Positions 2,547 through 64,000 of a stretch of 64,000 nucleotides of DNA are shown one piece after another. The notes under the pieces are model-generated. The model saw only the letters and a program-made list of their open reading frames with translations, searched no databases and had not been told where the DNA came from. The position numbers and the translations under genes were made by a program. Position 1 is the stretch's first letter, and each line of letters opens with the position of its first letter. Source of the stretch: an uncultured delta proteobacterium (GTDB lineage Bacteria; Desulfobacterota; BSN033; UBA1163); assembly GCA_963827685.1 (NCBI GenBank), contig CAWHBU010000002.1:224001-288000 (forward strand). Direction: 5' to 3'.

Positions 2547-5504
2547 GATAAGTCCCACCACCTTACCAACTTCTTTTGACCGAAGGCGATTCTTGAAGAC
2601 CCCCTGTTTGCTTCGTCTAATTGTGCGGTGGATAATGATATAATGCAGAGATCGATGTAAATTAATAACAGAGCTACAAGGAATAAAATAAATGCAAGGA
2701 TGGCTATAATTGCAAGGTAACCAAGGAGGCCAACAGTCATCATGGCGGCCACTATGGCTGGAAATTGATATATACCTGCAAGTAGCGCGGCTGCGATTAT
2801 TAAGGCAGGAACAATGAGAAATGCGCATGCCAAACCTTTACCCTCTTGTTGGTTAGTAATATCATTTACTCCCAGAGGTTGCGTGGTGCTCCCACCTGCA
2901 ATTCCCCCACTGATAAGGTACGCTCCTGCACCCGTAACAGGATCGGAAATAACATACCCTGCACCACTCCAATCATTGACCTGAATTTCTCTTTGAGGAA
3001 TAATTATCTCCTTGCCAGCATTTATTGCATTAATTATATCGGCCTTAACTTCATCAGAAACCTCAAGGAATGGAAGCACCGCAGACAGGTTTGCACTACT
3101 AACTATATATATTCTTAACCCTTGCTGATTAGCCAAATAAACGGCTTTGGCTGCTGAAATTCCTTGAACCCGGTAAAGCTGTTCCATTACTCCGTGTTCT
3201 AAACTCGACCCGATTATCCCAGCTGTCATCATAAAGCTCTTAAGGGATTGCGAATCACCTGTCCGTGACGAAAGGAGATACAATGACCGATCTATATCAA
3301 TATTTGCCCCTGTTACATTCACCCATCTCGGCACTCCAAACATGGTGACCACATTGAGTGATAACCCAAAAATTCCTTCCCCGGGTTGCTTCCCATATAC
3401 TATATTTTGCGATGCGGCAACAACATCTATTTGCCTATCGACTTCAAAGAAATAGCACATGACACTAAGGTAAAGTTGTTCGCCTATACCTGCGTCTGAT
3501 AGACGATCGCCTCCTGTTTTTGCAAAATTCTCAAGTTGTTGAGCCCGTTCTCTAAGAACCGAAGAAAAATGGGAAGACAGTCGATCGGGAACAAAGCCCA
3601 AAGCATAATAGCCTCCTGCCACAATATTATTTTGAACTTCGTCCGATCCTAACCCGGGAGATACGAAGCGTATAGTAAAATGCTGGATAATTCCCATTCC
3701 TCCTGAAATTCCTTCCGTCTTAACTATAGCTTCAACTCTAAGTTGTGACTTAACGTTGATAAGATAAGCGGGGGTATTGAAGAGACCTCCATACATGTTG
3801 ACCGTTTGCTGATCTGTTGAGGTTGCAGGCGCATAACTCAGTGTTACCCTTTTCCCGATCAGTTCTGGTAGGCTGGACGCGAAACTCAGATTCGGGCCGG
3901 ATAAACTCTCTGTATCTAATTCGAAAACGACATTATGCCGTAAACTGTCGGGAATAGCACAAAACTTGCTTCCAGTTGCTATTGTCTTATAGGGTAGTGT
4001 GATGGGTAAGGTAGAAAATTCTTGAGGAATAATTCCCTTTTTTCCAATGAGGTCTTCTATTGTACCGTTCGGTAGATTGTTATTGACATAATTTTCAATA
4101 CGGTTCTTAAGGTCATCAAATTGTGTCCGGATTAGGGCCCCGTCTACATTTGATATAAATCCCTCTTGTTCATTAATCGTAGCGGTAACCTTCAATTGAT
4201 TCACAAGTCCCTCAGCATCAAATGGAACTGCTGTTTTTATGTCAATCCCTTGTGTATAGGCAAACTGCTTGTACGATGGATCAAGGGGAACCCAAGTATC
4301 TCCTTGTCCTGTTTTATGTCTTGCACCCCTTGAAGGAATGTAATCAACCCACGCCTCGACCCATACATGTTCCAATCTTGCTTTTGTGACTTTGCCGCCT
4401 GAGATAATGCCTGTGACTGGGATTCCGCCACTCGCGATAAAATCAAGGGCGGCATTGGCATCGGTAAATCCTCCCACCCAGTTCATAACCTTATCTATTG
4501 GGAGTTCGATGGTTACCATAAACATACCGGGCGGGGATGTTAGAAGCACGAAGCAGTGCAGTCAGCAAAGAGGTCGTATCAAAGGCATTGCCTTGTTTGG
4601 TGAGCAAGGTCATATGGGCTCCTTGAATGGAGCCATAGGTGGGTACAAATTCGATGTTATTTCTCACCCAGTTGTAGATCTTTACAGGGTTGTTTCCAAG
4701 TTCCTGTGCTTTTGCAATTATTTCCGGTGTGAATTGGACTTCTATGTTCTCAGCGAGATCATCTGGAGTGGGAGGATTGGTCGCTTGTGCAACCATCAAG
4801 TTTGGAGTATTTGGTTCATAGTTCATAGTTCCTTGTTCATCGTTGGGCGATAAAAGACCTTTTAGAGACCCAATCGATGCAACAAGAATTGGTTTCCTCT
4901 GTGCTTCTGCCTTTTTCTGTTTTATGAAGTCTTTCTCAAAATCCTCTTTCTTAAGCCGGGGTTCCTTCCTTTCAAGCTTTTGGGTTCTATTGGGGAGCTT
5001 GTTTGGGTCTAACGGAATGTGTTTCTTGGGTGGTTTTACCTTTTCAAGATGGGCTCTAATTTTTTCGGCCCAAACCTCTGTCCCCGCTTTCTCAAATGCA
5101 TCAAGGTTGCCCTTCAGTTCAGTCACATTATCTTCATAATGCTTTACAAATTTATGATGCCTCTGCAATATCTCACTAGGAAGTCCTGCATCTCTTAACT
5201 TCTTCTCTGTCTCTGCAAACTGCTTTCTAATCTCCGTATCAAGGTTCTCTATTTCCGCTCTTTTTGCCTTTACCTTGGCGGCCTTTGCCTCTCTGTCAAT
5301 AACAGGATTCTCAAGAATCTCTGCGATTTCCTCGATTGCTTTCTGAAACCTCTCCTCTGATTTCGGAGTTCTTGAAGGCTGATTTTGGGGAGCGGGATCT
5401 TTTAGATTATCAACGGCATAAGCAAAGCTCGATATCCCAGCGAAGGTCCATGAAAAGAAAAATAGAACAACAATGGCCAATTTTTTTAAGAATTTATGAT
5501 TCAT
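2543..5504 (-). pseudogene. Transglutaminase-like domain secreted protein, split by a 1-bp frameshift near 4513 (pseudogene or sequencing error)
   Basis: ORF 4491-5504 (signal peptide; IYNWVRNNIEF..GNAFD..IPARYVYG) continues in another frame as TIELP..HVWVEAWVD..WVPLDPS (ORF 2543-4549). GGT-A-ACC-ATC-GAA contains one extra A. Confidence 0.8.
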
Positions 5505-10090: not shown

Positions 10091-10300
10091 GAAGCACCAA
10101 ATTCCAAGCACCTGCCTCCGCCGGAGCGGCTTCGCGCAGGCAGGCCAAATAACAAATAAATTCCAAAGGACCAAATTCGAAACCACAAGCGTCCTCACCC
10201 TTCCCCTCTCCCCCGAGGGGAGAGGGATGGGGTGAGGGGTGGTCATTGGAACTTGAAATTTGGAGCTTATTTGGAATTTGGGATTTGTCATTTGGAATTT
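10091..10300. repeat. Nested intergenic repeat cassette: CCAAAT-type arms enclosing two GC-rich palindromes
   Basis: Left arm CCAAATTCCAA/CCAAATAACAAAT, right arm TTGGAATTTGGGATTTG; CCTGCC..GCAGGCAGG at 10111-10144; CCTCACCC..GGGTGAGG at 10193-10237. Confidence 0.8.
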
Positions 10301-24347: not shown

Positions 24348-24515
24348 AGCACAGAGTGCATGGTGTAGGTCTTGATTCACAATTCATAACTCATAACTCT
24401 GAAGCCTTAAATCCTCACTCCCAAACAAAGAGTCTAAATTCCGCAATCCGCGTTCCGCAATTCTGGTTTCTTTCCATTTTACAACCCCACCGGATTCTGT
24501 TAGATTATTTTTGAA

Positions 24516-27127: not shown

Positions 27128-27280
27128 GCAAGTCCAAATGCCAAAGTTCAAATGCCAAATGAATGTCAAAGTTCCAAATCCAGGTTAAGGTTAAGGCTAA
27201 GGTTTAGGATTTTGTTGTTCAACCCTTGACCTCAACCTCAGCCTCAACCTTTATCTTGCGGTTTTGGTTTTTGACATTTT
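27128..27280. repeat. Nested inverted short-tandem-repeat cassette
   Basis: Outer arms CCAAAT/AATGTCAAA and TTTGG/TTTGACATT; inner arms (GGTTAA)n and (CCTCAA)n. Confidence 0.8.
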
Positions 27281-40564: not shown

Positions 40565-40566
40565 AA

Positions 40567-40752
40567 TTGTGATTTGTGAGTGGTGAATGGTGAATCGTGA
40601 AAATACAATAAATCAAAAACCTGAATTATAAAACTATTGAACAAAACGGCGAATCACCAGCATCAATCAACAAATTCGTGAGTCGTGAATAGTGAATCGG
40701 GATAATACCTGGATGACGAATCCCCAATTACCAACACGAATCACCAATCACC
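40567..40752. repeat. Two tandem inverted heptamer-repeat cassettes
   Basis: (GTGAAT/C)n followed by (AATCAC/CAATCA)n, twice, between rpmI and rplT. Confidence 0.75.
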
Positions 40753-57366: not shown

Positions 57367-58395
57367 ATGAAGGACATTTACCCAATCATTTTCTCTAATA
57401 GTTCTAAGATGACTAAAATCAAGGCGATCGCTGATGAAATCGCTAAGACCGATATTACGGTTTTGATTAAGGGTGAGAGTGGGACAGGGAAAGAGCTACT
57501 GGCCCAGACCATCCATCTGGATTCTCACCGGAGGGATAAACCCTTTGTTAAAGTAAATTGCGCAGCCATCCCTAAAGGACTCCTTGAAAGTGAGCTCTTT
57601 GGGTTTGAAAAAGGGGCCTTTACAGGAGCCCATTTAGAAAAACCGGGGAAGTTCGAATTGGCTAATCGTGGGACGATCTTGCTGAACGATATCGGCGAAA
57701 TAGACATTTCCATTCAGGCAAAACTATTGCAAGTCCTTCAAGATGGAGTGTTTTCCCGTTTAGGAGGGAATGGAGATGTGACGGTGGATACCCGTGTGAT
57801 TGCTACCACCAAAGATCATTTAGAAAAGACGATGATGGAAGGGCGTTTCCGCGAAGACCTATTTTTCAGGATCAATGTGATCAACATCACCGTTCCACCT
57901 TTGCGGGATCGCAAGGAGCAAATTCTTCCCCTTTCCCAGTATTATTTCAATTTTTACAAAAAGAAATATGGAAGAGAAGCCCCGCCGTTATCATCAATGA
58001 TGATCAATGCGTTTAATGAATATGATTGGCCTGGGAACATCCGTGAATTAGAAAATATGATAAAACGGATCGTCCTATTTGGTGAAGAGGAATCGGTCCT
58101 ACATAGCGTTTCGGGTGAAAGGGTGGATGACGGAAGTAATCCTGAGTCCAACGGAAGTTTATTACCCAACGCCTCAGCAGAAAATAAATCATTGAACTTG
58201 AAAGAGGTTGGGAAAAAAGCGGCTGAAGTTGCAGAAAAAGAGATTATTCAAAGCACGTTACTAGAGACACATTGGAACCGAAAAAAGGCCGCTAAATTAC
58301 TACGCGTGAGTTATAAGGCATTGCTGTATAAGATTCAAAAATACCATTTAGATGATCTGAGAGCATATCGAACGGTGGAAGAAGAGGCCGGTTGA
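57367..58395 (+). CDS. sigma54 enhancer-binding protein lacking a regulatory domain, with atypical Walker B
   Basis: GESGTGK, GAFTGA, LLNDIGE, WPGNIRELEN and HTH. Confidence 0.9.
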   Translation: MKDIYPIIFSNSSKMTKIKAIADEIAKTDITVLIKGESGTGKELLAQTIHLDSHRRDKPFVKVNCAAIPKGLLESELFGFEKGAFTGAHLEKPGKFELANRGTILLNDIGEIDISIQAKLLQVLQDGVFSRLGGNGDVTVDTRVIATTKDHLEKTMMEGRFREDLFFRINVINITVPPLRDRKEQILPLSQYYFNFYKKKYGREAPPLSSMMINAFNEYDWPGNIRELENMIKRIVLFGEEESVLHSVSGERVDDGSNPESNGSLLPNASAENKSLNLKEVGKKAAEVAEKEIIQSTLLETHWNRKKAAKLLRVSYKALLYKIQKYHLDDLRAYRTVEEEAG

Positions 58396-58997: not shown

Positions 58998-59612
58998 ATG
59001 AGAAAATTATTGAATATCGGAGTGATGGTGGCATTGATATTATTAATAATGACCAACATGGGCTACCCTCAAACGGATAATGAAACTCCTCCGAAAAAGG
59101 AAGCCCAGGCTGAAATAACTCCTGACAGCGGCAGTTACGTGATTGGCCCTGAAGATGTTCTGTACATCCATGTTTGGAGAGAAGAGACCTTATCGAGAAC
59201 TGTTCCGGTAAGAGTGGATGGAAATATTTCCCTTCCGATCATTAATGAAATTAGGGCGGCTGGGCTAACGCCTCTTCAATTGAAGGAGGCATTGACCGTG
59301 AGATTAAAAGAATTTATTGAAAGCCCAAATGTTTCTGTGACCGTGATGGAGGCCAACAGTTTCAAGGTCTATGTTTCCGGGCAAGTCAGGACTCCGGGAG
59401 TCTATCGCCTTCGAAGTGAGACGACTGTCCTGCAGATCATCCCTATGGCGGGCGGGTTTACAGAATGGGCCAACCAAAAGAAAATCCTAATCATTCGGAG
59501 AGAAAACGGTAAGGAGAAGCGAATCACTGTTAATTACAAAAAAATTATGAAAGGTGACGATGCAGGTTCCAACATTACGTTAAAACCGGGCGATACGGTT
59601 ATTGTCCCATGA
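58998..59612 (+). CDS. Polysaccharide export protein (Wza/SLBB family)
   Basis: YVIGPEDVL, VRVDGNISLP, GQVRTPG, AGGFTEWA and LKPGDTVIVP motifs. Confidence 0.92.
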   Translation: MRKLLNIGVMVALILLIMTNMGYPQTDNETPPKKEAQAEITPDSGSYVIGPEDVLYIHVWREETLSRTVPVRVDGNISLPIINEIRAAGLTPLQLKEALTVRLKEFIESPNVSVTVMEANSFKVYVSGQVRTPGVYRLRSETTVLQIIPMAGGFTEWANQKKILIIRRENGKEKRITVNYKKIMKGDDAGSNITLKPGDTVIVP

Positions 59613-59885
59613 CAGAAGCACGCAAAGCGCATAGAGCATGGCGTAATGAAGACCCGTTAGGCGTAAGGGGAAGTAACCCAAAACCCTGCCTTCCCTCCCA
59701 CTTGACGGGGACACAAAACTTTCCCTCCCACTTGACGGGGGAGGGTGAGGGTGGGGGTGAGAGCGTAGCCTCGACGTTCCTGCCCCGCGGCAGGCAGGCA
59801 CTGCCGACGGGTCTTAAGAAGAGAAAGGGGTAGAAACCCAATGAACCCAATAGACTCAAAGAACCCAATGAACTTAACAAACCGA
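59612..59885. repeat. Composite intergenic repeat tract
   Basis: Duplicated CTTCCCTCCCACTTGACGGGG, CCTGCC..GGCAGGCAGG palindrome, 9-mer tandem (AACCCAATG)n. Confidence 0.7.
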
Positions 59886-61326: not shown

Positions 61327-62883
61327 ATGCCTGAACAAAAACCTTTTAACATTCATGACTATTTAGAGATGGGTCTACGCCGAAAGTGGTACATCGTTAT
61401 TCCATTAGTTCTATGTGTTCTGGTTTCCTTCGGTGTTTATAAACACCTCCCCAAGGTCTATAAAGCGACAACCCTGATTCTCGTTCAGCCACAAAGGGTT
61501 CCGGAAAGTTATGTCCGGGCGACCATCACGGATTCTGTGGCAGGCCGATTAAGTACGATTGGTCAGGAAATTTTGAGCCGCACGCGATTGGAAAAAGTTA
61601 TTCAGGAATTTAACCTCTATTCAGAGGTTCGAAATGACGTTCCCATGGAAGGGATCGTCGAAATGATGAGACATGCAGTTGAAGTAAAGGTTCAAGTCAG
61701 TCCTCAAAATGAACGGACACAAAACTCTTTTTCCATCTCTTTCGAGGGCAAAGATCCCAAGACAGTGATGATGGTGACAAACAAGCTGGCGTCTCTATTT
61801 ATTGAGGAAAATTTGAGAGTCCGTGAATCGCAGGCAGAAGGGACTGCTGAATTCCTTAGTAAGGAACTGATGGAAATGGAAGACCGATTAAAGCAAAAAG
61901 AGTACGCTATGCGGAATTTTAAAGAGCGGTCAATGGGTCAACTCCCCCAGCAGCTTGATGCGAATTTGAGAATCCTCGAACGGCTGCAGCAACAACTCCA
62001 GACGACCAGTGAAAACATGAGAGCTGCAGAAGACAGGAGCATGCTGCTCCAAAATCAAATTGAACAGTTGAGGACACGGGGACAATTCTCAATGTCGCAA
62101 AGGCCTCATGGAGATACAGGTACAGGGACGGAAGGCATAGGCAGGCAAGGCATTCCCGAAGATCCATTAATCAACGAATTGAATAATCTAAAACGAGAGT
62201 TAGCAAGCGCACAATCTAAATATAAGGAATCCCATCCAGATGTGATCGATCTCAAGAAAAAAATAGCAAACCTTGAGCTCAAGGTGAAGAAATTATTCGA
62301 AAGACAAGAGGCTGAGAGAACGGGGACAGAAAGGAATGGTCAGGAAGGGGTTGGTGAGGAGAGTCTATCTTCATTCACTTTGGACCCCAATACGGCAAGA
62401 CTCGTTGCTCAATATAGAGAACAATATGACAGTGCAGTGCTCGAAGCGAAGCGCGCAAAGGAAGAGGCAAAGAATTTAAAAGAGCAAATCAGCATCTATC
62501 AAAAAAGAATCGAAGATACGCCAAGGCGGGAGCAAGAGATAGCACTTTTGACAAGAGATTACGACCTCTTAAAGACCAATTATCAATCTCTTATGGGAAA
62601 AAAGATGGAGGCCCAGATGGCGGAGAATCTCGAACGGAAACAGCAAGGTGAACAATTTAAGATTTTAGACCCGGCCCGCGTTCCTGTAAAACCGGTCAAG
62701 CCCGATCGCAATAAAATTTTACTGATGGGAGGTGGCATCGGACTTGTGGCAGGATTGGGGTTGGCCTGGTTTCGAGAATCAATGGATCAATCTTTCCATG
62801 CCGTCTCGGACCTGGAAGACTATTTGGGAATACCCGTTATAGCCACCATCCCAAATCTCAAAGAAGAGAGGAAAGCAGCTTAA
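61327..62883 (+). CDS. Polysaccharide chain-length determinant (Wzc/GumC-like, PEP-CTERM-system type)
   Basis: RRKW, LPKVYKA, YKESHPDV, coiled coil, FKILDPA..PVKP, two TM segments. Confidence 0.9.
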   Translation: MPEQKPFNIHDYLEMGLRRKWYIVIPLVLCVLVSFGVYKHLPKVYKATTLILVQPQRVPESYVRATITDSVAGRLSTIGQEILSRTRLEKVIQEFNLYSEVRNDVPMEGIVEMMRHAVEVKVQVSPQNERTQNSFSISFEGKDPKTVMMVTNKLASLFIEENLRVRESQAEGTAEFLSKELMEMEDRLKQKEYAMRNFKERSMGQLPQQLDANLRILERLQQQLQTTSENMRAAEDRSMLLQNQIEQLRTRGQFSMSQRPHGDTGTGTEGIGRQGIPEDPLINELNNLKRELASAQSKYKESHPDVIDLKKKIANLELKVKKLFERQEAERTGTERNGQEGVGEESLSSFTLDPNTARLVAQYREQYDSAVLEAKRAKEEAKNLKEQISIYQKRIEDTPRREQEIALLTRDYDLLKTNYQSLMGKKMEAQMAENLERKQQGEQFKILDPARVPVKPVKPDRNKILLMGGGIGLVAGLGLAWFRESMDQSFHAVSDLEDYLGIPVIATIPNLKEERKAA

Positions 62884-62931
62884 CTTAATAAAGCGTAAGG
62901 GGGAAGGCGTAAAGCGCAAGGGGTAAGGAGT

Positions 62932-63323
62932 TTGGAGAAACCGCGTAAGAAGTTGGATGTTTGGCAAGCAGCAATGAAAGCAGCAACAATGATATATAAA
63001 TTAACAGATAGATTTCAGGAAGAGGAAAAGTTCGGACTTGTCTCACAAATGAGGCGTGCATCAATCAGCATTCCTTGTAACATCGCTGAAGGCGCGGCAA
63101 GACAAGGGAAAAGAGAGTTCAAGAATTTTCTTAGCATGGCCCAGGGGTCTCTAAGCGAATTAGATACTCAACTAGAACTCGCTATCCTGCTCGGGTATAT
63201 AAGCACTGGAGATCTCCGAGAAATAGGGATCAATTATTAAGGATTGACAAAATGCTTTCAGGGTTAATTCGTAGTCTTACAAATAGGACTATAAACAACA
63301 AGGAGAAACGCTCTCGCGCCTAA
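62932..63323 (+). pseudogene. Four-helix-bundle protein (23S rRNA IVS protein / Avd-like), frameshifted near 63227
   Basis: KLDVWQ..EKFGLVSQMRRASISIPCNIAEG..FLSMAQGSLSELDTQL; last helix DQLLRIDKMLSGLIRSL lies in another frame after ATAGGGAT. Confidence 0.88.
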
Positions 63324-63455
63324 CGCCTTGCGACCGGGCGCTACGCAGGGTCTTGGTACCTGATTTAGCACCTTTCGCCTTGCGCTTTACGGTTTTTTTA
63401 GAAATGTTTAAATGACGCTCTCGCGCCTTGCGACTAACGACTGACGGTCTTTGTT

Positions 63456-64000
63456 ATGTACGAACAATTTTACGGCCTCAGAGAAAACCCTTTCAGTGTG
63501 ACACCAAACCCCGAGTATATCTTTTTGGGGAAGCACCATCGAGAAGCCCTGGCTCAATTACTCTACGGGGTGAGGGAGAAGAAGGGATTCATTGTTATCA
63601 CCGGCGAGGTGGGCACTGGGAAAACAACCCTGGTCCGCTATCTTCTTGATAAATTGGATGATAATGGTCATACAAAAACGGCCTTCGTATTTAACCCGAA
63701 ACTGGCTGTAAACGATTTCATCCAATACATATTGAAAGATCTTGGGGTAAGAGTTCAGGGACAAACGAAGGGTGAGCATCTTCATAACCTGCATCGGTAT
63801 TTACTCAACGCTTATCAGAAGGATGAAAGAGTGATCTTAATAATAGATGAAGCCCAGGGGTTAAAACCAGAGCTGCTTGAAGAGATCAGGCTCCTTTCAA
63901 ACCTTGAGACCTCAAGATCGAAATTGCTTCAAATTGTGTTAGTCGGGCAACCGGAATTTGATAAAACACTCTCGCTGCCGGGATTTCGCCAATTGAGACA
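63456..64000 (+). CDS. ExeA-like AAA ATPase (partial)
   Basis: MYEQFYGLREKPFSVTP, HREALA, ITGEVGTGKTT, IIDEAQ, RLLSNLE and LVGQPE motifs. Confidence 0.92.
   Translation, partial: MYEQFYGLRENPFSVTPNPEYIFLGKHHREALAQLLYGVREKKGFIVITGEVGTGKTTLVRYLLDKLDDNGHTKTAFVFNPKLAVNDFIQYILKDLGVRVQGQTKGEHLHNLHRYLLNAYQKDERVILIIDEAQGLKPELLEEIRLLSNLETSRSKLLQIVLVGQPEFDKTLSLPGFRQLR

What the first reader, a model, noticed from the sequence alone, without database searches (positions are those of the whole stretch)
62890..63450. Four-helix-bundle gene framed by complementary heptamer-repeat arms: a candidate hairpin-bounded mobile cassette
Seen: an IVS/Avd-like four-helix-bundle gene sits between wzc and the ExeA-like gene. 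Its left flank is a degenerate tandem of (GGCGTAA/AGCGCAA) and its right flank a tandem of the complement (CGCCTTG/CGCTTTA). They include a perfect 14-bp inverted pair, CGTAAAGCGCAAGG (62908-62921) and CCTTGCGCTTTACG (63378-63391). Known: members of this family are encoded in 23S rRNA intervening sequences removed at a stem by RNase III, and the Avd homolog is an RNA-binding DGR accessory protein. Inference: this is an mRNA-level counterpart, a gene looped out by a long stem, which spreads into operon junctions with no transposase or RT inside the cassette.
Basis: partly seen in the sequence, partly recalled or inferred. Interest (0 to 1): 0.85.

Follow-up and report, generated by a model that had tools for sequence, protein, structure and literature searches.

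The report
Small gene cassette with hairpin arms
A small gene of the kind known from insertions inside ribosomal RNA sits here between two operon genes, framed by mirror-image seven-base repeats; its relatives in many bacterial phyla are framed the same way, so it looks like a movable selfish cassette and may help explain the many seven-base repeats in bacterial genomes.

Summary
Window 62932-63240 encodes a PF05635/TIGR02436 four-helix-bundle protein. This copy is decaying: it has a TTG start and a 1-nt frameshift. It lies between a Wzz/GNVR gene and an AAA_22 ATPase gene and is flanked by complementary arms (21 nt, 90%).

The pattern is general:
- All 18 of 18 paralogs in this genome exceed the 99th percentile of 1500 random-position controls.
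- 62 of 75 relatives from about ten phyla exceed the 99th percentile of shuffles.
- 50 of 93 loci have complementary tandem units (45 of them period 7; 42 distinct units).

Four copies at four unrelated sites share homology exactly from the left arm to the right arm.

Orthologous junctions in relatives are variously filled, empty, reduced to relics, or occupied by a different paralog (33% identity). Flanking ORFs run the same way as the gene in 73 of 85 loci. Five orthologs keep a 26-pair closing stem, with compensatory changes in 9 pairs. ORF-less hairpin derivatives exist, including a 62-copy family.

My reading is an IVS-type, promoterless selfish cassette living in operon junctions. RNase III excision is inferred from the Coxiella 23S IVS and is not shown here. 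How the cassette moves is unknown. My searches found no paper describing this general architecture.

The parts
61327..62883 (+). No kinase domain was hit.
   Evidence: PF02706, PF13807.
62886..62931 (+). Left arm. A degenerate purine-rich tandem of ~7-nt units. It includes a 21-nt direct repeat (62889-62909 and 62910-62930) and the 5' half of the best inverted pair (62908-62928).
   Evidence: D3, I1-I5. It aligns with the clean heptamer arrays of the orthologs. It lies in the closing stem of the MFE and centroid folds.
62932..63240 (+). PF05635/TIGR02436 four-helix-bundle ORF with a TTG start, 102 aa. It is truncated by a 1-nt deletion near codon 97.
   Evidence: hit with 1 TAA inside; gap relative to four orthologs.
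63210..63323 (+). The displaced C-terminal part of the same gene, in another frame. It matches the C-terminus of the intact 130-aa ortholog L022:3142-3531.
63308..63334 (+). Right arm, proximal copy (pyrimidine-rich, complementary to the left arm). It overlaps the end of the shifted reading frame.
   Evidence: D1, I3, I5. Columns 469-497 of the conserved closing stem.
63335..63370 (+). Probable relic of the right arm and outer flank of an older cassette of the second paralog type. It is similar to the sequence that follows the arms in L022, L028 and L029.
   Evidence: Read by eye from the junction sequences printed. This is inference.
63371..63391 (+). Right arm, second copy. This is the 3' half of the best inverted pair and is followed by a T-run.
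   Evidence: I1, I2.
63415..63441 (+). Right arm, third copy (81% identical to the proximal copy).
   Evidence: D1, I4.
63456..64000 (+). Downstream host gene: an AAA_22 'ExeA-like' ATPase that runs off the end of the window.

Best explanation
The locus is a decaying copy of a promoterless selfish cassette. It is built like the ORF-bearing intervening sequences of 23S rRNA, but it lives in junctions between protein-coding operon genes.

THE UNIT. The cassette consists of a left arm of about four tandem ~7-nt units, a Shine-Dalgarno sequence, a ~120-130-aa PF05635 four-helix-bundle ORF, and a right arm made of the reverse-complement units.

SHOWN HERE.
- The arms travel with the ORF.
- The arm units differ between lineages but stay complementary to each other.
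- Cassettes are gained, lost, replaced and internally deleted at orthologous intergenic sites.
- They sit overwhelmingly in the sense orientation between co-directional genes.
- Intact copies are under purifying selection.
- ORF-less hairpin derivatives exist and can be multi-copy.

INFERRED.
- The cassette is transcribed by read-through from the host operon.
- The arms then pair into a ~26-30-bp stem that loops out the ORF.
- That stem is an RNase III substrate, as shown in vitro for the Coxiella 23S IVS. Cleavage would cut the cassette RNA out of the polycistronic transcript.
- Having the G-rich arm at the 5' end would keep a C-rich, Rho-loading stretch from being exposed while the loop is transcribed.

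UNKNOWN. How a new copy is inserted is not known. There is no transposase or RT inside the cassette, and I found no target-site duplication. The encoded Avd-like protein is the obvious candidate for an element-specific factor.
For: FAMILY. PF05635 E=4.8e-35. The ortholog scores 122.1 bits on TIGR02436 against a cut-off of 24. The ortholog matches PDB 2GSC at E=4.8e-32.

ARMS ARE GENERAL.
- 18 of 18 paralogs in this genome exceed the 99th percentile of 1500 random positions.
- 62 of 75 loci from Desulfobacterota-like MAGs, Acidobacteriota, Bacteroidota, Planctomycetota, Verrucomicrobiota, WOR-3, Chloroflexota, Gemmatimonadota and Proteobacteria exceed the 99th percentile of shuffles. 68 of 75 exceed a complement-not-reversed control.
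- 4 of 4 cyanobacterial plasmid loci inspected show the arms.

UNITS. 50 of 93 loci have complementary TRF consensus units. Of these, 45 are period 7, 4 period 8 and 1 period 6, with 42 distinct units.

BOUNDARIES. Four copies of one paralog type sit at four unrelated sites. They align from the left arm to the right arm and not beyond.

TURNOVER.
- 18 of 30 cassette loci from two congeners map to this genome. 10 of those are filled here. The other 8 (7 sites) are short here: one is cleanly empty and four hold hairpins of a different unit type.
- Same-site genes are often only 42-67% identical at the nucleotide level.
- One same-site pair is 97.3% identical (dS 0.076), while the 50-nt windows of its flanks are mostly 0.76-0.92 identical.

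SELECTION ON THE PROTEIN. dN/dS is 0.14, 0.18 and 0.20 in the three clearly orthologous pairs.

ORIENTATION. The flanking ORFs are (+,+) in 73 of 85 loci and (-,-) in 3.

NO OWN SIGNALS. No convincing + strand promoter or terminator was found in the cassette.

STEM.
- The long-range arm stem appears in both the MFE and centroid folds, z=-2.57, with 2 of 100 shuffles folding as well.
- RNAalifold on 5 orthologs predicts a 26-pair closing stem.
- That stem is 86% paired, against 32-52% when slid by 1-3 columns. 9 pairs change on both sides (3 of 500 shuffles reach this). The covariation score is 0.315 against 0.192 (0 of 500 shuffles reach it).

DECAY AND DERIVATIVES.
- 5 of 18 copies look broken.
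- Some hairpin loops hold N-terminal ORF remnants.
- A 62-locus hairpin family has halves that align to the two ends of a relative's cassette.

PRECEDENT. The Coxiella IVS has the same gene family, a 28-bp stem, in-vitro RNase III cleavage and 5' tandem heptamers of variable copy number (PMC4990558). 18 genes of this family were reported inside cas operons (PMC3936711).
Against: - No RNA evidence was obtained (see Tried and rejected).
- Mismatches in the arm cores show no sense-strand wobble bias. There are 84 sense-G.U-type against 113 antisense-type among 441 mismatches, so pairing at the DNA level is not excluded.
- The 5'-G-rich polarity (68 of 71 loci) looks the same from either strand. 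It therefore says nothing about which strand matters.
- No target-site duplication or sharply defined end was seen.
- No near-identical copies at different sites were found within this genome, so there is no sign of recent transposition here.
- Most strong heptamer arrays in this genome are not in cassettes or hairpins: 143 of 232 are solo. Such arrays therefore also exist independently.
- 13 of 75 loci from other phyla do not exceed the shuffle threshold. 43 of 93 loci lack TRF-level complementary units.
- The window copy itself has degenerate arms and a broken gene.
- The covariation test rests on 5 related sequences and on a structure derived from the same alignment.
- The orientation test used a crude longest-ORF proxy rather than gene calls.
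Confidence: 0.6

Rival explanations
1. A DNA-level hairpin element. The arms fold in single-stranded DNA, during replication or transfer, and are acted on by a host or trans-acting enzyme such as a Y1 (IS200/RAYT-like) transposase, or by replication slippage. On this view the ORF is cargo, and the RNA stem is incidental.
For: - There is no sense-strand G.U bias in the arm mismatches.
- The genome holds 25 Y1_Tnp hits, 21 of them near-identical.
- ORF-less hairpin derivatives are multi-copy, with 62 loci in one family. This means they amplify without the ORF in cis.
- The arm polarity is symmetric between the strands.
Against: - The IS200-like element has its own subterminal hairpins, which are unrelated to the heptamer arms.
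- The arm sequences differ between loci (42 distinct units in 50 loci). That fits poorly with sequence-specific Y1 recognition.
- The loops are ~400 nt, which is long for DNA snap-back.
- The sense orientation within operons is strong: 73 (+,+) against 3 (-,-).
- The homologous rRNA element is processed as RNA (PMC4990558).
Confidence: 0.2
2. A host-serving operon module. The four-helix-bundle protein and its stem act as an mRNA processing or stability device that tunes expression across operon junctions. It is inherited vertically and often lost, and it is not mobile in any active sense.
For: - Intact copies are under purifying selection (dN/dS 0.14-0.20).
- The cassette sits tightly, in the sense orientation, between co-directional genes.
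- Copies recur in polysaccharide and cas operons.
- No recent copies were found within this genome.
Against: - Different paralogs (33% identity) occupy the same junction in close relatives.
- One paralog type is found at four unrelated sites, bounded by its arms.
- A clean empty site exists.
- Many copies are pseudogenes.
- One cassette is 97% identical between genomes whose flanks are ~85% identical.
Confidence: 0.1
3. The arms are generic intergenic heptamer arrays that were already there. The gene merely targets such arrays, or is retained between them, so the arms are not part of what moves.
For: - This genome has 232 strong period-7 arrays, 143 of them solo.
- Several loci have layouts such as [A][A'] gene [A'], which look like an insertion into one arm of an existing hairpin.
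- Tandem heptamers are reported to be the most abundant intergenic tandem repeats across prokaryotes (PMC6344855).
Against: - Homology among copies at unrelated sites includes both arms and stops at their outer edges.
- The clean empty site has no array.
- Arm units co-vary with the paralog type at the wzc-exeA junction.
Confidence: 0.1

Closest known systems
ORF-bearing intervening sequences (IVS) of 23S rRNA (Leptospira, Coxiella)
   Same: - The same protein family (S23p / PF05635).
- An ORF looped out by a terminal inverted-repeat stem of ~28 bp.
- Tandem heptamers at the 5' end, with variable copy number.
- Sense orientation within a host transcript.
- Sporadic distribution that suggests horizontal transfer.
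- A tendency of the ORF to decay.
Source: PMC4990558, passages read. Ralph & McClelland 1993/1994 are known to me only as cited in that paper.
   Different: - The element here lies between protein-coding genes rather than in a 23S helix. This genome's 23S has no ORF-bearing IVS.
- There are many paralogous copies per genome, 18 here.
- The ORF is under purifying selection, whereas the Coxiella authors conclude that S23p is probably not made.
- Excision by RNase III is untested here.
Avd, the accessory protein of diversity-generating retroelements
   Same: A homologous four-helix-bundle fold. PF05635 is the commonest Pfam family next to DGR RTs (PMC10053308). There is a weak match to the Avd model.
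   Different: - The score is below the Avd equivalog cut-off (28.5 against 80 bits).
- The only RT hit in the genome is hundreds of kb from any copy.
- I looked for no template or variable repeats.
MITEs and REPIN/RAYT systems
   Same: - Short intergenic hairpin elements in many copies, together with a few gene-bearing 'master' versions.
- ORF-less derivatives whose two halves match the ends of the gene-bearing element.
- Insertion polymorphism between relatives.
   Different: - The arms are tandem repeats whose sequence differs between lineages, not a conserved terminal inverted repeat or REP sequence.
- The gene inside is not a transposase or a Y1 enzyme.
- No target-site duplication was seen.
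- The orientation bias with respect to host transcription is strong.
Intergenic tandem heptamer repeats (cyanobacterial STRR, Beggiatoaceae TAACTGA repeats, the pan-prokaryote heptamer excess)
   Same: - The 7-nt period and the intergenic location.
- The taxa are the same ones that are rich in this gene family: Cyanobacteria, Bacteroidetes and sulfur bacteria (PMC4679880; PMC6344855).
- 4 of 4 Nostocales plasmid genes of the family that I inspected are framed by such arrays.
   Different: The published repeats are described as direct repeats of unknown function. The TAACTGA sets include only 1 inverted set among 170. No link to this gene family is made in the passages I read. In this genome 143 of 232 strong arrays are solo.
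Integron gene cassettes
   Same: Promoterless single-ORF cassettes, expressed in the sense orientation from an outside promoter, with imperfect inverted repeats that fold as hairpins. This comparison is from established knowledge and was not tested here.
   Different: There is one arm on each side of the ORF, rather than a single attC at the 3' end. The copies are scattered in operon junctions, not stacked at an attI site next to an integrase. I did not search for an integrase.

Membership tests
PF05635 / TIGR02436 four-helix-bundle protein (23S rRNA IVS protein) | Profile score above the curated cut-off | tested here: met
   The window ORF scores 120.4 bits against a cut-off of 33.8. The intact ortholog L022:3142-3531 scores 122.1 bits on TIGR02436 against a cut-off of 24.
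PF05635 / TIGR02436 four-helix-bundle protein (23S rRNA IVS protein) | Conserved R..S...N..E core motif (published as GxxRxxxSxxxNxxE; PMC3936711) | tested here: met
   S46, N50 and E76 are invariant in 13 paralogs. R42, S46, N50 and E53 are invariant in A3. The window ORF carries the same stretch.
PF05635 / TIGR02436 four-helix-bundle protein (23S rRNA IVS protein) | Four-helix-bundle fold that assembles as a pentamer | tested here: inconclusive
   This rests on sequence similarity only. The ortholog matches chain 2GSC_A (XCC0516) at E=4.8e-32 over residues 2-119. No model was built and the oligomer state was not tested.
DGR accessory protein Avd | Score above the Avd equivalog cut-off (NF033474) | tested here: not met
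   28.5 and 24.5 bits against a cut-off of 80. A third paralog gave no hit.
DGR accessory protein Avd | Adjacent reverse transcriptase | tested here: not met
   The single RVT_1 hit is at C4:393223-393885. The nearest family copies on that contig are at 128670 and 715292.
23S rRNA intervening sequence (IVS) element | Inserted in a helix of 23S rRNA | tested here: not met
   The cassette lies between two protein-coding genes. The genome's 23S (C7:12618-15662) has only small expansions and no PF05635 hit.
23S rRNA intervening sequence (IVS) element | Terminal inverted repeats that close the element into a stem of >=20 bp | tested here: met
   21-nt arms that are 90% complementary. The stem appears in the MFE and centroid folds. 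There is a 26-pair consensus stem with covariation in 5 orthologs.
23S rRNA intervening sequence (IVS) element | Tandem heptamers at the 5' end (Coxiella) | tested here: met
   The arrays are clean in the orthologs and in 45 of 93 family loci. They are degenerate in the window copy.
23S rRNA intervening sequence (IVS) element | Excision from the transcript by RNase III | not testable with these tools
   No RNA run was listed. This needs end-mapping in wild type against an rnc mutant.
MITE / terminal-inverted-repeat transposon | Target-site duplication flanking the element | tested here: inconclusive
   None was evident at four copies of one type or at the filled-versus-empty site. The genomes compared are ~15-20% diverged, which could hide a short duplication.
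MITE / terminal-inverted-repeat transposon | Multi-copy, with insertion polymorphism between relatives | tested here: met
   There are 18, 17 and 14 copies in three congeners. 7 sites are filled in a relative and short here. An ORF-less family has 62 loci.
REPIN/RAYT system | A Y1 (RAYT) gene flanked by its own REP hairpins | tested here: not met
   The gene between the arms is PF05635, not Y1. The Y1 elements of this genome carry unrelated hairpins.

The most novel reading that the evidence does not exclude
Tandem heptamer arrays are reported to be the most abundant intergenic tandem repeats across prokaryotes, and their function is unexplained (PMC6344855). The boldest reading my evidence does not exclude is that a large share of them are the arms, half-arms and relics of one pan-bacterial class of IVS-type cassettes. 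On this reading the Avd-like four-helix-bundle protein recognises the repeat stem of its own transcript. It promotes the spread of the cassette through an RNA intermediate into exposed spacers of other transcripts (operon junctions, rRNA spacers, rRNA helices). The element would carry no transposase or RT of its own.
Probability: 0.2. Interest if true: 0.95.

Novelty: new variant of a known kind. Interest (0 to 1): 0.8.

Why it matters
PF05635/TIGR02436 is a very common bacterial 'hypothetical' family. In a sample of this phylum, 73 of 121 genomes carry it, with up to 18 copies each. Its only understood member is the DGR protein Avd.

Showing that its free-standing members come as arm-ORF-arm cassettes would do four things:
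1. It would give the family a biological context, as a selfish element of transcribed spacers.
2. It would tie the long-puzzling ORF-bearing rRNA intervening sequences to a much larger population of elements in mRNA operons.
3. It would offer a testable origin for part of the unexplained excess of 7-nt tandem repeats in prokaryotic intergenic DNA (PMC6344855).
4. It would warn annotators that these small genes inside polysaccharide, cas and other operons are probably passengers, not pathway components (PMC3936711).

It also raises the question of how a cassette with no recombinase moves.

Tried and rejected
CHANCE REPEATS: rejected.

DGR MEMBERSHIP: rejected.

ANTI-PHAGE DEFENCE ANNOTATION: no PADLOC hit for 3 of 3 proteins tested.

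KNOWN RNA FAMILY: none. The only Rfam hit over 62700-63600 is at chance level (E=0.79, below the gathering score).

OWN PROMOTER OR TERMINATOR: nothing convincing on the + strand.

RNA EVIDENCE: no RNA holder was listed for window 62300-63900.

SENSE VERSUS ANTISENSE STABILITY: RNAduplex over whole 160-nt flanks was too noisy to be useful (49 against 43 of 93 loci). I replaced it with mismatch typing in the arm cores, which showed no sense-strand bias.

SWAP CONTROL: swapping right flanks between loci turned out to be contaminated by units shared between loci. I replaced it with shuffles and a complement-not-reversed control.

ORF-BEARING IVS IN THIS GENOME'S 23S: not found.

PHAGE CARRIAGE: no match in the phage collection.

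Y1 TRANSPOSASE LINK: the IS200-like ends are unrelated to the arms.

LITERATURE. Nine searches found no paper describing complementary heptamer arms around chromosomal PF05635 genes. One search was swamped by an unrelated clinical abbreviation. The library holds open-access papers only. Ralph & McClelland 1993 and Vioque 1997 are not held; I saw only their titles in reference lists. Supplements are closed. The supplementary tables of PMC4679880, which list the genes next to TAACTGA repeats, could bear on the proposed link to published heptamer repeats.

NOT DONE: structure prediction, complex prediction, protein database searches beyond Pfam/NCBIfam/PADLOC/PDB, and a genome-by-genome correlation of heptamer arrays with family copy number.
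Full report
WHAT IS AT THE LOCUS

Window 62932-63240(+) is a 102-aa ORF that matches PF05635, the 23S rRNA intervening-sequence protein (E=4.8e-35). It lies 48 nt after the stop of a Wzz+GNVR chain-length-determinant gene (61327-62883). It ends about 215 nt before an AAA_22 'ExeA-like' ATPase gene that starts at 63456.

The flanks pair. Positions 62908-62928 are 90% complementary to 63371-63391, and four more left/right pairs exist. The left flank is a 21-nt (3 x 7) direct repeat. The right flank holds three related 27-nt copies.

The flank-against-flank score is 32. In 1500 random positions of the same genome the mean was 17.0 and the 99th percentile 25.

The RNA fold of 62884-63396 closes the cassette with this long-range stem in both the MFE and centroid structures (z=-2.57; 2 of 100 shuffles fold as well).

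This copy is decaying. It starts with TTG where orthologs have ATG. A 1-nt deletion moves the last ~30 codons into another frame. TRF no longer calls its arms as arrays.

I found no convincing + strand promoter or terminator and no Rfam family.

THE PATTERN IS GENERAL IN THIS GENOME

The window is C2:224001-288000 of a 5.2-Mb, 14-contig assembly. The genome has 18 PF05635 hits.

Printing their flanks showed tandem 7-8-nt units on the left and the reverse complement on the right. The units differ from locus to locus.

All 18 of 18 exceed the 99th percentile of the random-position control, with scores of 27-43.

Five of the 18 copies look broken: one frameshift, in-frame stops in two, one truncation, and one with no standard start.

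THE PATTERN IS GENERAL ACROSS PHYLA

A scan of one genome per species with a three-sequence alignment confirmed 584 relatives among 598 candidate stretches. The best 80 loci were kept. They come from MAGs and isolates labelled Deltaproteobacteria/Desulfobacterales, Acidobacteriota (many Pyrinomonadaceae), Bacteroidota, Planctomycetota, Verrucomicrobiota, WOR-3, Chloroflexota, Gemmatimonadota, Gallionellaceae and Wenzhouxiangella.

- Of the 75 loci with both 200-nt flanks, 62 exceed the 99th percentile of shuffles. 68 exceed a control that keeps composition and repeat structure but not orientation.
- All 14 diverse examples I printed showed complementary arrays with their own units.
- TRF on 93 loci (18 own plus 75) found arrays on both sides in 72.
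- 50 of the 93 have complementary consensus units with at most one mismatch. Of these, 45 are period 7, 4 period 8 and 1 period 6, with 42 distinct units.
- Typical arms have about four units. The median core is 30 nt.
- In the plasmid collection the family occurs in 32 records, mostly Nostocales. All 4 loci I inspected have the same framing. One lies between cas6 and cas4, and one lies antisense between nrdB and nrdA.
- No phage record matched.

THE ARMS BELONG TO THE UNIT THAT MOVES

Four copies of one paralog type sit at four unrelated sites, three in one congener and one here. They align from the first left-arm unit to the last right-arm unit. Outside that span the sequences are unrelated. 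No target duplication is evident.

Five orthologs of the window's cassette give an RNAalifold consensus with a 26-pair closing stem. On that stem:
- 86% of cells pair, against 32-52% when the partner is slid by 1-3 columns.
- 9 pairs change on both sides (3 of 500 shuffles reach this).
- The covariation score is 0.315 against 0.192 (0 of 500 shuffles reach it).

For example, one unit position is C:G, A:U or U:A in different orthologs.

These counts rest on only five related sequences and on a structure derived from the same alignment.

GAIN, LOSS AND REPLACEMENT

I recovered the wzc-exeA junction in 12 genomes. Two further loci, L023 and L025, end at a contig edge. The junction states are:

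| State | Loci |
|---|---|
| The window's paralog | 4: own, L022, L024, L026 (84%, 87% and 69% protein identity to the window ORF) |
| A full-length second paralog, 33% identical, with different arm units | 2: L020, L027. L020 has a 1-nt gap near codon 10 |
| The second paralog, interrupted by a ~190-nt insert | 1: L028 |
| The second paralog, internally deleted | 2: L030, L021 |
| Only a right-arm stump in a 76-nt spacer | 1: L029 |
| Arms of a third type around a ~100-nt remnant | 2: L031, L032 |

The two closest relatives by Wzz identity (87-88%) carry the second type, not the window's type. The window's right flank and both flanks of L022 still show pieces of the second type's arms. I read this by eye.

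Going the other way, I took 30 cassette loci from two congeners, which have 17 and 14 hits, and mapped their flanks to this genome.
- 18 mapped with both flanks and 12 did not.
- 10 of the 18 are filled here.
- The other 8 (7 sites) are short here.
- One of these 7 is a clean empty site, where the stop codon is followed directly by the next ATG.
- Four hold ORF-less hairpins whose unit type differs from the relative's cassette.
- One holds an unrelated C-run/G-run palindrome, and one holds another hairpin.

Among the same-site filled pairs, several genes are only 42-67% identical at the nucleotide level, so they are different paralogs. Three pairs are clearly orthologous, with dN/dS of 0.14, 0.18 and 0.20.

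One cassette, arms included, is 97.3% identical between genomes (dS 0.076), while the 50-nt windows of its flanks are mostly 0.76-0.92 identical. This suggests recent exchange. Unusually strong nucleotide-level constraint is not excluded.

ORIENTATION AND POLARITY

I used the longest ORF (>=70 aa) in each 700-nt flank as a crude proxy for the neighbouring gene. Both neighbours run the same way as the cassette gene in 73 of 85 loci, and both run opposite in 3. Random insertion orientation would make these two classes equal.

The 5' arm has more G than C in 68 of 71 loci with a good arm core, and its mean purine fraction is 0.67. This polarity is identical when read from the other strand. It is therefore a property of the hairpin, not of the gene's orientation.

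My inference, which is untested, is that a C-rich arm transcribed first would sit unpaired for the whole loop and could load Rho. A G-rich arm transcribed first avoids this.

DERIVATIVES AND THE WIDER HEPTAMER POPULATION

The genome has a marked excess of period-7 arrays. At TRF score >=40 there are 234 of period 7, against 17 of period 6 and 57 of period 8.

After merging, the 232 strong period-7 arrays divide as follows:
- 14 lie within 300 nt of a family gene.
- 34 lie in one hairpin family.
- 41 lie in other hairpins.
- 143 have no complementary partner within 700 nt.

Some hairpin loops keep the first ~12-15 codons of a family ORF.

The hairpin family has 62 loci of ~110-130 nt. Its two halves align to the left and right ends of a gene-bearing cassette in a congener, with scores of 82 and 87. 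It is therefore an ORF-less derivative that has multiplied.

Three ORF-less heptamer hairpins also sit in the transcribed spacers of the rRNA operon.

WHAT IT IS NOT

- It is not a DGR Avd. It scores 28.5 bits against a cut-off of 80, and the single RT in the genome is far from every copy.
- It is not in PADLOC.
- It is not an rRNA IVS in the strict sense. The 23S gene has no ORF-bearing insert.
- It has no evident tie to the 21-copy IS200-like element, whose hairpins are unrelated.

COMPARISON WITH THE LITERATURE

- Warrier et al. 2016 (PMC4990558; passages read) describe the 428-nt Coxiella 23S IVS. It has an S23p ORF and a 28-bp terminal stem that RNase III cuts in vitro. Its 5' region has a possible SD followed by three tandem GACAGAT heptamers whose number varies between strains. 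The 5' cut falls at the start of the first repeat. They conclude that the protein is probably not made, and they relay the older idea that the ORF served mobility.
- Zhang et al. 2013 (PMC3936711; passages) found 18 genes of the family inside cas loci.
- MacGregor 2015 (PMC4679880; passages) catalogued TAACTGA direct repeats in Beggiatoaceae, Cyanobacteria and Bacteroidetes. The terms S23, four helix and intervening do not occur in its text.
- Mori et al. (PMC6344855; passages) state that tandem heptamers are the most abundant intergenic tandem repeats across prokaryotes, with 'no clear clue' to their function.
- I saw the title of Vioque 1997, on STRR sequences inside cyanobacterial RNase P RNA genes, only in a reference list.
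- Nine full-text searches found no description of complementary heptamer arms around chromosomal members of this family. The library covers open-access papers only, and supplements were closed.

VERDICT

The locus is one decaying member of a widespread class of arm-ORF-arm cassettes. These are related to rRNA intervening sequences and sit in the sense orientation in operon junctions.

- Mobility in the evolutionary sense is well supported.
- Pairing and cleavage at the RNA level is the most economical reading, but it is inferred.
- The insertion mechanism and the role of the protein are open.

Results that weaken the reading:
- There is no sense-strand wobble bias.
- There is no target duplication.
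- There are no recent within-genome copies.
- Most heptamer arrays are solo.
- 13 of 75 distant loci fall below the threshold.
- There are no RNA data.

Noticed in passing
window 59612-59841: The spacer between the Poly_export gene and the beta-barrel porin gene of the same polysaccharide operon holds what looks like a left arm of the second paralog type. It is followed by an ATG and by other nested direct and inverted repeats. This is probably another cassette relic.
   Followed up: partly
window 27182-27250; 40565-40752; 24384-24459; 10269-10300; 4814-4844: Further short-period arrays and hairpins in the window. They include a complementary AGGTTA/ACCTCA pair and an AATGGTG ... AATCACC pair with a ~118-nt loop.
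   Followed up: no
G000 C7:12360-16100 (L159): The rRNA operon carries three ORF-less heptamer hairpins in transcribed spacers: one between the two spacer tRNAs, one just upstream of the 23S 5' end, and one between 23S and 5S.
   Followed up: partly
G000, 62 loci, e.g. C2:121885-122015: A MITE-like hairpin family of ~110-130 nt with CCAAAT-type heptamer arms and an inner palindrome. Unlike most cassettes, its C-rich arm comes first.
   Followed up: yes
G000, e.g. C4:636157-636519 (L161-L164): A compact IS200-like element (545-bp conserved block) in about 21 near-identical copies. One copy is inserted inside a member of the hairpin family.
   Followed up: partly
L028 (relative G003), wzc-exeA junction: The family ORF there is interrupted by a ~190-nt insert, flanked by a short direct repeat. 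It looks like a different small mobile element.
   Followed up: no
G000, e.g. C1:165440-165490, C2:121995-122030: A separate GC-rich palindromic element (a '...GCCTGCCTGCGCGAAGCCGCTTCG...' type) is repeatedly found abutting members of the hairpin family.
   Followed up: no
L009 (G000 C2:294228-294539): In this copy the ORF reads on into the right arm, which gives the protein a C-terminal tail of short peptide repeats encoded by the heptamer array.
   Followed up: no
G000 C3:846860-868374 and C5:160286-161718: Cassettes cluster. Three lie within 22 kb on C3, next to sugar-nucleotide epimerase-like genes, and two lie ~870 nt apart on C5. Congeners also show adjacent pairs.
   Followed up: no
window 57367-58395: A sigma-54-type activator-like ORF and a small ORF upstream of the export genes suggest that this is a regulated exopolysaccharide locus.
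   Followed up: no
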